Assembly: GCF_057098645.1 (NCBI RefSeq) | Contig: NZ_CM169472.1 | Length of the DNA: 64,000 nt | Direction: 5' to 3' (one strand) | Shown here: piece after piece, positions 15,001 to 18,000 of the stretch | Layout: each line of letters opens with the position of its first letter | How positions within the stretch are numbered: position 1 is the stretch's first letter | Made by a program: the position numbers

Positions 15001-18000
15001 TTACCCCGGATATTGCAGCATCGCAAAAATTCTTAGAGGGATATGCTATAAATCAAAAATAAAATCTTTGTTGATTGTTTATCATAATATCCACAGATAT
15101 GATAAATGATATCAATTTAATAATTTTCACTTAATGTGATTCCGGATAATTCGAAAGGCGCTGTGCTTTTCGGATTATTATTATCTGATTAAGATACTTG
15201 TCACGCCAGGCTTACTGGTTTATAAATGTCAATCATGATTCTTATAAATTATTTATTGCTGCTTTGGTTACCATTACTTCGTAATAAGTAATGTATTTTT
15301 GATGGTTTAAACTATTTTTAAGGGACGGCATTATGCGAGGGAAAATACCTAAAACGGAACTGCTGGTGACTTTTGAGGTCGTCGCACGTCATGAAAGTTA
15401 TACCAGAGCGGCAGAGGAGTTAGCGTTAACCCAAAGTGCAGTATTCAGACAAGTAAGTGCGCTGGAGGAATTTTTACGTACTCCGTTATTTTCACACTCT
15501 AAAAAACGTATTTTTCTTAATGATGCAGGTAAGTATTACCTGGGGATAGTAAAAGAAACATTAAATAAGCTAGAACGCGACACCAATACCATTATGACCT
15601 GGCAGCCTACGGTTCAGGTTATTGAACTTGCCGTTAATCCTACTTTTAGTACCCACTGGTTAATCCCAAATTTACATGAATTCACAAAGTTACATCCCGA
15701 TATTATTGTTAATATTCATTCTTTAGCTAATAACGGCGATTTTCTTAATCGGGAGTACGATGCTGTCATTATGCGCGAAAATTTTTGCGCGCCCTGGGCG
15801 GAAGTAGAATATCTCTTTGATGAGGAGATTTTGCCGGTATGCAGCGGCAGTTTGCTTGCAATGTCCGATCAAAAACTGTCAGTGGCAGAACTGCTTACTG
15901 AGTTACCGCTTCTGCATCAAAGCACCCGTATTACTGGCTGGGAAGAGTGGTTTGCTTTATCTGGCGTTAGCAGTCCGCTGGTCAATAACGGACCACGTTT
16001 CGATTTGCTTTCAATGCTGATTGCCGCCGTGCGCTCTAATCTCGGCGTGGCGCTGTTACCACGTTTCGCTATTCAACATGATTTGGATAGTGGCGATATG
16101 GTGATTCCCTGTGATGTGCCTATTCGTACCGGTAATCGTTTTATTATGACGTGGCAGGAAGAGAAGTCTGACTCACCGCACTTGCAGCAATTTCGTGAAT
16201 GGTTGCTGGCGAAATCGGTCGTACCGCAGGAGATGTAAAACCTGCGCCTGGCGGGATGCCAGGCGCAGTTATTACCAGTCGATACCCGGCTGGGCCTGAA
16301 TGCCGTTATCAAAAGCATGTTTGACGGGGCGGATTTCGCTTACCGTATCCGCCATTTTTAATATCTGACTGTGGCAACCGCGTCCGGTGACAATGACACT
16401 TTGTTGTGCCGGGCGGTTTTGCAGAGAAGCGATCACTTCTTCGGTATCCAAATAATGGTAAGCCAGCATATAGGTCAGCTCATCAAGCACCACTAAGTCG
16501 TAACGCTTGTCAGCCAGCATCCGTTTGCTTTCCGACCAGACCTCTTTCGCCGCGTCGATATCCGCTTGCCGGTTCTGTGTCTCCCAGGTAAAACCGGTTC
16601 CCATAATATGAAACTCAACCCCCAGCGGCTGGAGAAGGTTATATTCGCCGTTGTCCCATTGCCCCTTGATGTACTGCGCAACCCCCACCGTTTTGCCATG
16701 ACCCACCGCGCGCGTCACAGTACCAAACGCGGCAGTGGATTTCCCTTTGCCGTTGCCGGTGAAAACAATCAAGATCCCTTTTTTCTCTATCGCCGCCGCG
16801 ACGCGCGTATCGACCTGTTCCTTCAATTTCTGTTGGCGCTGCACATGCCGTTCAGTTGAAATTCGCGCTTCCATTCATTTTCCTTAATGTCCCGCAGGGC
16901 AACTGGCGCAGCGGTGTTGCTGCTCAAACTGACTAAAGAAATTATTGCCTTTATCATCTACCAGGATGAATGCGGGCAGATTTTCCACTTCCATCATCCA
17001 CACCGCTTCCATACCCAGCTCCGGGTATTCCAGGCAACGCAGACTTTTGACATATTCTTGCGCCAGTAACGCAGCTGCACCGCCAATACTTCCCAGATTG
17101 AAGCCGCCATGTTTGTGACAGGCATCGGTGACCTGCTGGCTGCGGTTACCTTTCGATAACATCACCAGACTGCCGCCAGCCGCCTGGAAGGTATCGATAT
17201 AACCGTCCATTCGACCGCCCGTGGTTGGACCCAGTGAACCGCAGGCCATGTTCTCCGGTGTTTTCGCCGGGCCAGCGTAATAGACAATATGATGCTTCAG
17301 GTACTCCGGCATCGATTCGCCGCTATCCAGCCGCGCTTTTATTTTGGCGTGGGCGATATCGCGCGCCACTACGATGGGACCACTTAACGACACGCGGGTA
17401 CCTACCGGTAATCTGGCGAGATCCAGCATCACGTCACGCAACGGACGGTTTAGATCCAGTTGTACATGTTGCGCGTGATTTTCTTCCCGCAATGAGGCTG
17501 GAATATATTGCCCCGGATTGTGTTCGAGTTTTTCCAGCCAGATACCGTGTTTGTTAATTTTTGCTTTGATATTGCGATCGGCAGAACAGGAGAGCGCCAT
17601 AGCTATCGGGCAAGAGCCACCGTGACGCGGCAGACGAATGACGCGAATATCATGAGCGAAATATTTCCCCCCAAATTGTGCACCAATACCAAATTGCTGA
17701 CTGGCCTCGAGCAACGCTTTTTCCAGCTCAATATCACGGAATGCTTGTCCCTGCTCGTTTCCGCTGGTGGGCAAATTGTCGTAATATTTCGTTGAGGCCA
17801 GCTTGGCAACTTTTAAGGTTTGATCGGCTGAAAGCCCTCCGACGACAAAGGCGATGTGGTAAGGCGGGCAGGCAGCGGTGCCCAGCGATTTCATTTTTTC
17901 GATTAAAAATGCGGTCAGTTTTTCTGGTTGCAATAAGGATTTGGTTTCCTGATAAAGCGCGGCTTTATTGGCGGAGCCGCCCCCTTTATTAACACAGAGA

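What the first reader, a model, noticed from the sequence alone, without database searches (positions are those of the whole stretch)
16272..16874. Dedicated BtuR/CobA-like adenosyltransferase encoded with the B12-dependent mutase
The last gene of the operon is a second corrinoid adenosyltransferase (the housekeeping btuR lies outside this window). E. coli does not make corrinoids de novo, so a pathway-linked adenosyltransferase suggests local generation or regeneration of adenosylcobalamin from salvaged cobalamin for glutamate mutase, possibly working with the GlmL putative reactivase.
Basis: partly seen in the sequence, partly recalled or inferred. Interest (0 to 1): 0.4.

Follow-up and report, generated by a model that had tools for sequence, protein, structure and literature searches.

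The report
Extra B12 adenosyltransferase in glutamate-fermentation island
The gene is a real, intact second copy of the enzyme that turns vitamin B12 into its active coenzyme form. It sits at the end of a glutamate-fermentation gene island, but it is already annotated and published, and in this strain two genes of that pathway are broken.

Summary
Window 16272-16874 (minus strand) is a 200-aa CobA/BtuR/CobO-type ATP:co(I)rrinoid adenosyltransferase. It passes TIGR00708 (246.6 bits, cutoff 167.75) and aligns end to end with Salmonella CobA (68% identity).

It is the last gene of the island glmS-glmL-glmE-mal-atuA-DUF4387-transporter-fumD-cobA, which lies between sucD and cydA. It starts 9 nt after fumD and is followed by a strong hairpin.

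It is a true paralog. The housekeeping btuR is in 5422 of 5426 complete E. coli genomes; this copy is in 1121. Across genera, every copy at 80% identity or more lies behind fumD in this island. Every 65-71% copy lies in yciK-btuR-rluB, except Morganella's. The island copies form their own clade and are under purifying selection (18 synonymous, 1 non-synonymous change within E. coli).

A pathway-linked adenosyltransferase is therefore well supported by genomics, but it is untested biochemically. It is also already known: RefSeq calls it cobO, and Kronen & Berg 2015 label it CobA.

Two caveats apply. This window is an O145:H28 strain in which glmL and mal are frameshifted. The gene is also kept in B12-producing genera, so lack of de novo synthesis in E. 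coli is not the reason it is there. One lead: Arg165, invariant in housekeeping copies, is lost in 17 of 18 island copies.

The parts
16272..16874 (-). Island cobA/cobO: 200-aa CobA/BtuR-type ATP:co(I)rrinoid adenosyltransferase, the gene of the finding
   Evidence: ORF. PF02572 216 bits. TIGR00708 246.6 bits, above cutoff 167.75. Salmonella CobA 1g5r E=2.5e-88. DNA 100% identical to cobO (WP_000388207.1) of O145 RM9872.
16875..16886 (-). fumD stop codon and ribosome-binding site: TAAGGAAAATGA, followed by the cobA ATG (9-nt intergenic gap)
   Evidence: Sequence read directly. The same fumD-to-cobA spacing (fumD ends 9991, cobA starts 10001) occurs in the Salmonella, Enterobacter and Citrobacter loci.
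16242..16268 (-). Terminator-like hairpin between the cobA stop and the stop of the convergent LysR-family gene (11 pairs, 9 of them G-C, then GTTTTAC)
   Evidence: Pattern scan. RNA fold -29.4 kcal/mol, z=-5.46, 0 of 200 shuffles fold as well.
16884..18536 (-). fumD: class I fumarase / mesaconase, 550 aa
   Evidence: PF05681 + PF05683. NCBIfam PRK15392 1279 bits. FumD was characterised biochemically in PMC4682846.
18644..19945 (-). Dicarboxylate/amino acid:cation symporter (GltP/DctA-like). PGAP places the start at 19924.
   Evidence: PF00375 343.6 bits. Annotation.
20085..20402 (-). DUF4387 protein, 105 aa
   Evidence: PF14330 134 bits. Annotation.
20399..21769 (-). AtuA/DUF1446-family protein, 456 aa, function unknown
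   Evidence: PF07287 68 bits. Noted as DUF1446 in PMC4682846.
21773..23013 (-). mal: methylaspartate ammonia-lyase PSEUDOGENE. A 1-bp deletion near 22783 makes the reading frame stop after 101 codons.
   Evidence: Indel relative to EDL933. tblastn match is split at residue 77. Translation. PGAP marks it 'frameshifted' in RM9872 and RM12761. The exact allele is present in 25 genomes.
23013..24458 (-). glmE: glutamate (methylaspartate) mutase subunit E, 481 aa, intact
   Evidence: ORF. Annotation. Orthologs carry PF06368.
24477..25864 (-). glmL (mutL): mutase accessory / putative reactivase PSEUDOGENE. A 1-bp deletion near 25736 makes the frame stop after 47 codons.
   Evidence: PGAP marks it 'frameshifted'. 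The allele is shared by O145:H28 genomes.
25864..26313 (-). glmS: B12-binding subunit S of glutamate mutase, 149 aa, intact
   Evidence: tblastn 100% identity to EDL933 GlmS. Annotation.
15333..16238 (+). LysR-family regulator, convergent with cobA and conserved with the island in all genera examined
   Evidence: PF00126 + PF03466. Present next to cobA in every island locus, 79-87% identity (62% in Morganella).

Best explanation
The gene encodes a working CobA/BtuR-type ATP:co(I)rrinoid adenosyltransferase (EC 2.5.1.17). It is a long-standing paralog of the housekeeping btuR and belongs to the enterobacterial methylaspartate-pathway island.

Inferred mechanism, by homology with Salmonella CobA:
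- The dimeric P-loop enzyme binds MgATP through GNGKGKST.
- It holds cob(II)alamin base-off and four-coordinate with Phe95/Trp97 (Phe91/Trp93 in CobA).
- It accepts one electron from a reduced flavoprotein.
- The Co(I) nucleophile then attacks C5' of ATP, giving adenosylcobalamin and triphosphate.

Inferred role: the gene is translated directly behind fumD at the 3' end of the island, so it would be made together with glutamate mutase. It would raise the local capacity to load GlmS/GlmE with coenzyme, and to re-adenosylate the cob(II)alamin or hydroxocobalamin released after suicide inactivation. In strains with an intact glmL, that gene would presumably do the release. This would parallel PduO with PduGH in the pdu operon and EutT with EutA in the eut operon, but with a CobA-type enzyme.

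What is shown: family membership, intact catalytic motifs, paralogy, conserved synteny and purifying selection. What is inferred: co-transcription, enzyme activity, and any dedication to the mutase.

In this window (O145:H28 lineage) mal and glmL are frameshifted. The adenosyltransferase is therefore intact but its pathway is probably not operating.
For: Family and catalytic residues:
- HMM hits are above the curated cutoffs.
- There is a full-length alignment to solved CobA structures.
- 77 alignment columns are invariant over 86 distinct sequences. They include the P-loop G36-K41, T43, R51, F91, W93, E128 and R161 in Salmonella numbering.

Paralogy:
- btuR is in 5422 of 5426 E. coli genomes; the island copy is in 1121 of 5426.
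- glmE covers at least 80% of the query in 1121 genomes, the same count as for cobA. Whether these are the same genomes was not checked.

Synteny:
- All 19 loci with at least 80% identity (7 or more genera) read glmL-glmE-mal-AtuA-DUF4387-SDF-(glutaminase)-fumD-cobA|LysR.
- The 66 loci at 65-71% identity, other than Morganella, read yciK-btuR, with rluB next to it where the contig extends that far.
- Nine genomes show both copies.

Phylogeny:
- The island clade is recovered in 30 of 30 bootstrap trees (27 of 30 with Morganella included).
- It lies outside all sampled Enterobacterales housekeeping copies.
- Identity between the two clades averages 67.8%, against 80.2% within the housekeeping clade.

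Selection:
- Window versus EDL933: 4 synonymous, 0 non-synonymous changes.
- Window versus AST85: 14 synonymous, 1 non-synonymous (dN/dS 0.02).
- Between genera dN is 0.09-0.13 with synonymous sites saturated.

Operon geometry: 9-nt gap after fumD, a Shine-Dalgarno sequence and a terminator hairpin.

Literature: the gene is labelled CobA in the cluster figure of PMC4682846.
Against: - There are no transcript, protein or activity data for this gene. Kronen & Berg found no condition under which O157:H7 expressed the cluster, with or without added cobalamins (PMC4682846).
- Housekeeping btuR coexists in essentially all carriers. By established knowledge E. coli also has EutT, so the need for another adenosyltransferase is not demonstrated.
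- Glutamate mutase clusters outside Enterobacterales lack any adenosyltransferase gene nearby. This holds for 3 of 3 distant clusters sampled and for the legend of the clostridial figure in PMC4682846. The mutase therefore does not generally need a dedicated one.
- In Morganella the fumD-cobA module is next to the cob operon and has no glm genes within 10 kb.
- In this window glmL and mal are pseudogenes.
- No promoter-like site was found on the minus strand, and no B12 riboswitch was found in the island.
Confidence: 0.6

Rival explanations
1. Redundant passenger. The gene is an active, general-purpose CobA-type adenosyltransferase that travels with the island, perhaps inherited from a donor in which it was the cob-operon-linked cobA. 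It has no specific relationship to glutamate mutase and at most adds enzyme dosage.
For: - All catalytic residues are identical to those of housekeeping CobA.
- btuR is present in essentially all carriers.
- In Morganella the fumD-cobA module abuts cobT-cobC-cobS-cobU-cbiP-cbiO-cbiQ and has no glm genes within 10 kb.
- Distant glm clusters have no adenosyltransferase gene.
Against: - A purely redundant gene should be lost or decay in some lineages. Instead it is intact in all 19 island loci from 7 or more genera, and it occurs in the same number of E. coli genomes as glmE (1121 each; overlap not checked).
- dN/dS is about 0.02 within E. coli.
- The clade has kept its own characteristic substitutions.
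- Caveat: the cross-genus loci were found through cobA itself, so islands that have lost cobA would have been missed.
Confidence: 0.25
2. Specialised variant. The island CobA has diverged functionally from the housekeeping enzyme. It may use a different electron donor than flavodoxin FldA, prefer a different cobamide, or act as an escort that passes AdoCbl to GlmS.
For: - Arg165 is invariant in 68 of 68 housekeeping copies. It is Ala, Ser or Thr in 17 of 18 island copies; only Morganella keeps Arg.
- From my recollection of Buan & Escalante-Semerena 2005 (J Biol Chem 280:40948), Arg9 and Arg165 are needed for FldA docking but not for catalysis. I could not verify this here.
- Further clade-specific changes are T42S in the P-loop, P70D, V86I, A88G and D136H, plus a 4-residue N-terminal extension on the helix that caps the active site.
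- The clade is deep and distinct.
Against: - Arg9 and all corrinoid- and ATP-contacting residues checked are conserved.
- The role of Arg165 could not be confirmed in the held literature.
- No candidate partner reductase is recognisable in the island.
- A chaperone function is known only for PduO-type enzymes (PMC8633584), not for CobA-type.
Confidence: 0.2
3. Idle remnant in this strain. In the O145:H28 lineage the pathway is decaying, so the intact cobA is currently without its pathway function. It may also be poorly expressed because of polarity from the upstream premature stops.
For: - glmL stops at codon 47 and mal at codon 101.
- The same frameshifts are annotated in independent O145 assemblies RM9872 and RM12761.
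- The exact mal allele is found in 25 genomes and the exact glmL allele in at least 6.
- RM12761 carries a non-synonymous change, I148S, in cobA.
- No internal promoter-like site was found on the minus strand.
Against: - The cobA protein in the window is identical to that of O157:H7 EDL933, where the whole island is intact.
- glmS, glmE, fumD and the transporter are still intact.
- The frameshifts are recent and restricted to one lineage, so they say nothing about the gene's function in the other roughly 1100 genomes.
Confidence: 0.4
4. Not an adenosyltransferase. It is a CobA-like P-loop NTPase with a different function.
For: Weak sub-threshold hits to PRK07414 'P-loop NTPase family protein' (76.9 bits, cutoff 248).
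Against: - It scores above the equivalog cutoff for cobA.
- It is 68% identical over its full length to the crystallised enzyme.
- All residues invariant across the family are present.
Confidence: 0.03

Closest known systems
Salmonella enterica CobA / E. coli BtuR, the housekeeping ATP:co(I)rrinoid adenosyltransferase (PDB 1G5R, 1G5T, 1G64, 4HUT)
   Same: Same Pfam and NCBIfam family, with a full-length alignment: 68% identity to CobA and 67% to K-12 BtuR. The P-loop, R9, R51, F91, W93, E128 and R161 are conserved. The chemistry is therefore expected to be the same.
   Different: - It forms a separate clade outside all sampled Enterobacterales housekeeping copies.
- It lies in a catabolic island behind fumD, not in yciK-btuR-rluB.
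- It is 200 aa against 196 aa, with a 4-residue N-terminal extension.
- Substitutions are R165 to S/A/T, T42 to S and P70 to D.
- It is present in only 21% of complete E. coli genomes.
PduO (pdu operon) and EutT (eut operon), the pathway-encoded adenosyltransferases of Salmonella and E. coli
   Same: The genetic logic is the same. The adenosyltransferase gene sits inside the operon of an AdoCbl-dependent enzyme together with a reactivase-like gene: PduGH or EutA there, GlmL/MutL here. This comparison rests on established knowledge; PMC2982820 describes the pdu regeneration system (listed).
   Different: The protein families are unrelated. The Pfam scan of this protein found only PF02572 and a sub-threshold match to the CobA N-terminal motif PF12557. 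There are no microcompartment genes, and no dedicated corrin reductase comparable to PduS is recognisable in the island.
MMAB (human ATR) / bacterial PduO-type ATR with MeaB/MMAA, serving methylmalonyl-CoA mutase
   Same: Conceptually similar: an adenosyltransferase supports a carbon-skeleton mutase, with loading and repair of the cofactor (PMC8633584; PMC10356863).
   Different: Direct AdoCbl hand-off has been shown only for PduO-type enzymes. This is a different fold, there is no G-protein chaperone here, and no interaction data exist for any CobA-type enzyme.
CobA as drawn in the enterobacterial glutamate-fermentation cluster by Kronen & Berg 2015 (PLoS One 10:e0145098, Fig 5)
   Same: It is the same gene in the same cluster. 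O145:H28 strains are explicitly listed as carriers.
   Different: The paper only labels the gene. It reports no phylogeny, residue analysis or function for it, and it does not mention the O145 frameshifts in glmL and mal.

Membership tests
CobA/BtuR/CobO ATP:co(I)rrinoid adenosyltransferase (PF02572; TIGR00708) | Scores above the curated family thresholds over the full domain | tested here: met
   PF02572 216.2 bits (cutoff 25.7), profile 1-172/172. TIGR00708 equivalog 246.6 bits (cutoff 167.75). PRK05986 295.6 bits (cutoff 185).
CobA/BtuR/CobO ATP:co(I)rrinoid adenosyltransferase (PF02572; TIGR00708) | P-loop (Walker A) motif GNGKGK[ST]T for MgATP binding | tested here: met
   The window protein has GNGKGKST at residues 40-47. 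G36-K41 and T43 are invariant in 86 of 86 sequences. Position 42 is Ser in 18 of 18 island copies and Thr in 66 of 68 housekeeping copies; both fit Walker A.
CobA/BtuR/CobO ATP:co(I)rrinoid adenosyltransferase (PF02572; TIGR00708) | Phe91 and Trp93, which displace the lower ligand to give four-coordinate cob(II)alamin. Their role is recalled from Moore et al. 2012 (PDB 4HUT) and was not re-verified here. | tested here: met
   Both residues are invariant in all 86 sequences, including the window protein (F95/W97). The protein aligns with 4hut at E=1.4e-86.
CobA/BtuR/CobO ATP:co(I)rrinoid adenosyltransferase (PF02572; TIGR00708) | Full-length homology to an experimentally solved and characterised member | tested here: met
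   Residues 6-200 align with residues 2-196 of Salmonella CobA 1g5r, E=2.5e-88. Identity is 68%.
CobA/BtuR/CobO ATP:co(I)rrinoid adenosyltransferase (PF02572; TIGR00708) | Catalyses adenosylation of cob(I)alamin or cob(I)yrinic acid a,c-diamide with ATP | not testable with these tools
   This needs an enzyme assay or genetic complementation. No published assay of this paralog was found.
Housekeeping btuR/cobA orthologs (the yciK-btuR-rluB locus) | Orthology, shown by synteny with yciK and rluB and by position within the housekeeping clade | tested here: not met
   The window gene lies behind fumD. None of the 19 island loci has yciK or rluB nearby. The island clade is separated from the housekeeping clade in 30 of 30 bootstrap trees.
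Housekeeping btuR/cobA orthologs (the yciK-btuR-rluB locus) | Arg9 and Arg165, reported as flavodoxin (FldA) docking residues (recalled from Buan & Escalante-Semerena 2005; not verified here) | tested here: inconclusive
   Arg9 is conserved in 86 of 86 sequences. Arg165 is invariant in 68 of 68 housekeeping copies but is Ser in the window protein and A/S/T in 17 of 18 island copies. The functional meaning of the residue could not be confirmed in the held literature.
Pathway-dedicated adenosyltransferases (a functional class, exemplified by PduO and EutT) | Encoded within, and co-transcribed with, the operon of an AdoCbl-dependent enzyme | tested here: inconclusive
   Position and spacing fit: same strand, 9-nt gap after fumD, a terminator after the gene, and conservation in 7 or more genera. 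No transcript evidence exists, and expression conditions are unknown (PMC4682846).
Pathway-dedicated adenosyltransferases (a functional class, exemplified by PduO and EutT) | Required for activity of the cognate enzyme at limiting cobalamin, or not replaceable by the housekeeping enzyme | not testable with these tools
   This needs deletion mutants and mutase assays.
Pathway-dedicated adenosyltransferases (a functional class, exemplified by PduO and EutT) | Cognate pathway intact in the same genome | tested here: not met
   In this window glmL and mal are frameshifted. The feature is met in EDL933 and AST85, where all island genes are intact.

The most novel reading that the evidence does not exclude
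The island copies would be the first CobA-type adenosyltransferase specialised for a single B12 enzyme. They have lost Arg165, which is otherwise invariant and which I recall as a flavodoxin-docking residue, and they carry a modified N-terminal cap. Such an enzyme might draw electrons from a different partner, or hand AdoCbl directly to GlmS, in a GlmL-driven repair cycle for glutamate mutase. That would be a third, independently evolved solution alongside PduO and EutT.
Probability: 0.2. Interest if true: 0.55.

Novelty: already known. Interest (0 to 1): 0.25.

Why it matters
If the island CobA really serves glutamate mutase, the 'carry your own adenosyltransferase' design seen in the pdu and eut operons would have evolved a third time, here from the housekeeping enzyme family. 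It would also provide a natural pair of CobA paralogs (Arg165 present or absent) for studying how these enzymes choose their electron donor.

It could help explain how B12-scavenging pathogens such as E. coli O157 might run a coenzyme-hungry glutamate fermentation in the gut. No one has yet made that pathway work in the laboratory.

As it stands, this is a correct reading of an already annotated and published gene. In this particular strain the pathway is broken, so the practical significance is modest.

Tried and rejected
1. B12 riboswitch or other RNA control of the island. Rfam found nothing between 15000 and 29200, either at gathering thresholds over the whole window or at E<=1 over the island.
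2. Plasmid carriage or mobility of fumD-cobA. The only full-length 'plasmid' hits are 4.9-Mb records (mislabelled chromosomes) or replicons of 0.4-0.7 Mb. There is no evidence of a small mobile carrier.
3. Internal promoters for fumD-cobA. No sigma-70-like site was found on the minus strand between 15200 and 20400. This is a crude scan and only weak negative evidence.
4. Verifying the role of Arg165 and Arg9 in FldA docking. The paper is not held by DOI, and three text searches found nothing usable. I kept it only as a recalled lead.
5. Locus-tag searches (ECs0756, Z0888 and neighbours) for functional or transcriptomic data. Only the FumD paper came up. A methylaspartate/O157/transcriptome search gave nothing relevant.
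6. Whether an adenosyltransferase generally accompanies glutamate mutase. Three distant glm clusters, chosen from the representative search, have no such gene in the available flanks. The idea was rejected as a general rule.
7. Non-adenosyltransferase P-loop family. Rejected on HMM cutoffs and residue conservation.
8. The frameshifts as sequencing artefacts. Rejected because independent O145 assemblies share them.
9. A first Biopython bootstrap run timed out. It was redone with a faster distance routine.
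Full report
**The observation.** An ORF occupies exactly 16272..16874 on the minus strand and encodes 200 aa.
- It matches Pfam PF02572 (CobA_CobO_BtuR) over the whole profile at 216 bits.
- It exceeds the curated cutoffs of the NCBIfam equivalog TIGR00708 cobA (246.6 against 167.75) and of PRK05986 (295.6 against 185).
- It aligns from residue 6 to 200 with the crystallised Salmonella CobA (1g5r/1g5t/1g64, E=2.5e-88; 4hut, E=1.4e-86).
- Hits to the CobA-like 'P-loop NTPase' model PRK07414 are far below its cutoff.

**The surroundings.** The window carries sdhB-sucABCD, then a LysR-family gene on the plus strand (15333-16238). On the minus strand, read 5' to 3', it carries the following:

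| Gene | Coordinates |
|---|---|
| glmS | 25864-26313 |
| glmL | 24477-25864 |
| glmE | 23013-24458 |
| mal | 21773-23013 |
| AtuA/DUF1446 gene | 20399-21769 |
| DUF4387 gene | 20085-20402 |
| GltP/DctA-like symporter | 18644-19945 |
| fumD, a class I fumarase | 16884-18536 |
| adenosyltransferase gene | 16272-16874 |

RefSeq annotation of near-identical genomes gives the same gene list and calls the gene cobO.

The gaps between successive genes are 2, 21, -1, 3, -4, 160, 107 and 9 nt (the first value came from a stop-excluded glmS end, and by the coordinates above glmS and glmL overlap by 1 nt). The fumD stop is followed by GGAAAATGA and then the ATG, so AAGGAA sits 5 nt upstream of the start codon.

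Directly after the cobA stop lies an 11-bp, GC-rich hairpin at 16242-16268 (-29.4 kcal/mol, z=-5.5). It fills the 33-nt space to the stop of the convergent LysR-family gene. 'Last gene of the operon' is thus supported by geometry. Transcription itself was not tested.

**It is a second copy.**
- tblastn finds only one CobA/BtuR homolog in the window.
- A sensitive blastn of the gene against 5426 complete E. coli genomes finds a copy of about 69% identity in 5422 of them. In K-12 this copy lies in yciK-btuR-rluB.
- The copy of 95% identity or more occurs in 1121 genomes, one per genome and almost always chromosomal.
- glmE covers at least 80% of the query in 1121 genomes, the same count as for cobA. 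I did not check that these are the same genomes.
- By established knowledge E. coli also encodes EutT. This would then be the third adenosyltransferase of such strains, and the second of the CobA type.

**Relatives elsewhere.** The nearest proteins are 200-aa sequences, 83-88% identical, from Citrobacter, Enterobacter, Salmonella and [Enterobacter] lignolyticus.
- In Salmonella, Enterobacter and Citrobacter the flanking genes read MutL(GlmL)-GlmE-MAL-AtuA-DUF4387-SDF-glutaminase-fumarase-CobA, then a convergent LysR-family gene. The fumarase-to-CobA spacing is identical, although the outer flanks differ.
- A scan of one genome per species returned 80 loci, and their identities fall into two groups. 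I classified the context of these and the six earlier loci by tblastn.
- All 19 loci at 80% identity or more lie in the island behind fumD. They come from Citrobacter, Salmonella, Enterobacter, Lelliottia, Buttiauxella, Klebsiella michiganensis and a Raoultella MAG.
- Of the 67 loci at 65-71%, 66 lie next to yciK, with rluB beyond it where the contig extends that far.
- The remaining one, Morganella morganii, has transporter-fumD-cobA|LysR. It has no glm genes within 10 kb and sits directly beside cobT-cobC-cobS-cobU-cbiP-cbiO-cbiQ.
- Nine genomes appear in both groups.

**Phylogeny and selection.**
- A neighbour-joining tree of 86 distinct sequences separates the island clade from all housekeeping copies. 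Support is 30 of 30 bootstraps, or 27 of 30 with Morganella included, and the midpoint root falls between the two clades.
- Mean identity is 89% within the island clade, 80% within the housekeeping clade and 68% between them.
- The window protein is 67% identical to K-12 BtuR and 68% to Salmonella CobA, which are 89% identical to each other.
- Within E. coli, the window differs from EDL933 by 4 synonymous and 0 non-synonymous changes. It differs from AST85 by 14 synonymous and 1 non-synonymous change (dN/dS 0.02).
- Between genera dN is 0.09-0.13 with synonymous sites saturated. This is slightly faster than fumD, whose dN is about 0.08.
- The paralog is therefore old, maintained by selection, and kept alongside btuR.

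**Residues.**
- Seventy-seven columns are invariant across both clades. They include the P-loop, R9, R51, F91, W93, E128 and R161 in Salmonella numbering. Nothing suggests loss of catalysis.
- Clade-specific differences are a 4-residue N-terminal extension, T42S, P70D, V86I, A88G, D136H and, most strikingly, Arg165.
- Arg165 is invariant in 68 of 68 housekeeping sequences but is Ala, Ser or Thr in 17 of 18 island sequences. It is Ser in the window, and only Morganella keeps Arg.
- From memory, Buan & Escalante-Semerena (J Biol Chem 2005) found Arg9 and Arg165 necessary for flavodoxin-dependent adenosylation but not for catalysis. I could not retrieve that paper or any secondary source. This is a lead, not a result.

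**State of the pathway in this window.**
- The window is 99.975% identical, without gaps, to E. coli O145:H28 RM12761 over 24 kb. It is 99.93% identical to O145 RM9872 and 99.16% to O157:H7 EDL933.
- Relative to EDL933 it has single-base deletions in glmL (near 25736) and in mal (near 22783).
- Translation from the native starts ends after 47 and 101 codons respectively. tblastn shows each protein split between two reading frames.
- PGAP marks both genes 'frameshifted' in RM9872 and RM12761. Both are intact in EDL933 and AST85.
- The exact 61-mer around the mal deletion occurs in 25 genomes. The one around the glmL deletion occurs in at least 6, with RM9872-C1 differing only by a nearby SNP.
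- These are therefore real mutations of one lineage. In this strain GlmS and GlmE are intact, but the putative reactivase and the next pathway enzyme are not. The cobA protein is identical to that of EDL933.

**Is an adenosyltransferase a general companion of glutamate mutase?** No.
- I took GlmE representatives at 59%, 47% and 40% identity and inspected their contigs.
- One has glmS-glmL-glmE-mal-AtuA-DUF4387 followed by unrelated genes. One is a rudimentary clostridial-type cluster. One reads glmE-glmS-ICL-MutL. None has an adenosyltransferase gene nearby.
- The legend of the clostridial cluster figure in Kronen & Berg lists none either.
- The enterobacterial island looks like a core (glmSLE-mal-AtuA-DUF4387) joined to a second module (transporter-[glutaminase]-fumD-cobA plus LysR). 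Morganella carries that second module alone.

**Regulation.** No cobalamin riboswitch or any other Rfam family is detected in the island. The 550 bp upstream of glmS are 32% GC. The only conserved regulator candidate is the convergent LysR-family gene.

**Literature.**
- Kronen & Berg 2015 (PMC4682846) characterised FumD as a mesaconase.
- They drew this cluster with 'CobA, cob(I)alamin adenosyltransferase' in their Fig 5 and listed O145:H28 among the carriers.
- No paper in the held library addresses the function of this adenosyltransferase.

**Interpretation.** The most likely reading is an active CobA-type adenosyltransferase made together with the island enzymes. It would raise the capacity to form and regenerate AdoCbl for glutamate mutase, as PduO and EutT do in their operons.

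The gene is equally conserved in genera that make B12 and that also keep their own cobA. Cooperation with GlmL is impossible in this strain.

Three alternatives remain open:
- a redundant passenger inherited from a Morganella-like, cob-linked arrangement;
- a specialised variant with an altered electron-donor interface;
- for this strain only, an idle remnant of a decaying pathway.

The finding is correct but already annotated and published, hence the low interest score. The loss of Arg165 is the only feature that might lead somewhere new.

Noticed in passing
window 21773-23013 (mal) and 24477-25864 (glmL), minus strand: Both genes carry 1-bp deletions relative to O157:H7 EDL933. mal stops after 101 codons and glmL after 47. 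The alleles are shared by O145:H28 genomes (exact 61-mers in 25 and at least 6 complete genomes), so the methylaspartate pathway appears to be decaying in this lineage while glmS, glmE, fumD and cobA stay intact.
   Followed up: yes
window 16370-16372 (codon 169 of cobA; equals Arg165 of Salmonella CobA): Arg165 is invariant in 68 of 68 housekeeping BtuR/CobA sequences. It is replaced by Ser, Ala or Thr in 17 of 18 island copies. I recall this residue as a flavodoxin-docking residue but could not verify that in the held literature.
   Followed up: partly
L069 (Morganella morganii NZ_CP066129.1) 6567-18664: A transporter-fumD-cobA|LysR module stands without glm or mal genes within 10 kb. It lies directly beside the 3' end of the cobalamin biosynthesis operon (cobT, cobC, cobS, cobU, cbiP, cbiO, cbiQ). 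This is a possible ancestral arrangement for the fumD-cobA linkage.
   Followed up: partly
window 20085-21769, minus strand; also L092 4629-6341: An AtuA/DUF1446 gene and an overlapping DUF4387 gene follow mal in every enterobacterial island. They do so too in a metagenomic cluster whose GlmE is only 59% identical. The pair is conserved and its function is unknown.
   Followed up: partly
L004/L005 (Salmonella) and L008/L009 (Citrobacter) 7224-8245 and 11979-13644: Islands in Salmonella and Citrobacter carry a glutaminase gene between the transporter and fumD. They also carry a uroporphyrinogen methyltransferase-family gene (TP_methylase) and a PocR-domain AraC-type regulator beyond the LysR-family gene. 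All three are absent from the E. coli version; Enterobacter has the glutaminase gene only.
   Followed up: no
window 26314-28308: The 550 bp upstream of glmS are very AT-rich (32% GC). Beyond them lie two low-GC ORFs (26861-27283, 140 aa; 27364-28308, 314 aa) with no Pfam match. This looks like foreign DNA at the island edge next to cydA.
   Followed up: partly
L091 2567-3169 (O145:H28 RM12761 cobO): RM12761 carries a non-synonymous change, I148S, in cobA that the window and RM9872 lack. It is the only amino-acid difference among the O145 and O157 copies compared.
   Followed up: no
L090 14108-15529 (E. coli AST85): An RtcB-family gene is inserted between the island's LysR-family gene and sucD in strain AST85. 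It is absent from the window.
   Followed up: no
window 8210-8280, 37145-37283, 38210-39008: Rfam hits at the gathering threshold: naRNA4 between sdhB and sucA, the CpoB/ybgF thermometer, and a cluster of seven tRNA genes with an RtT element.
   Followed up: no
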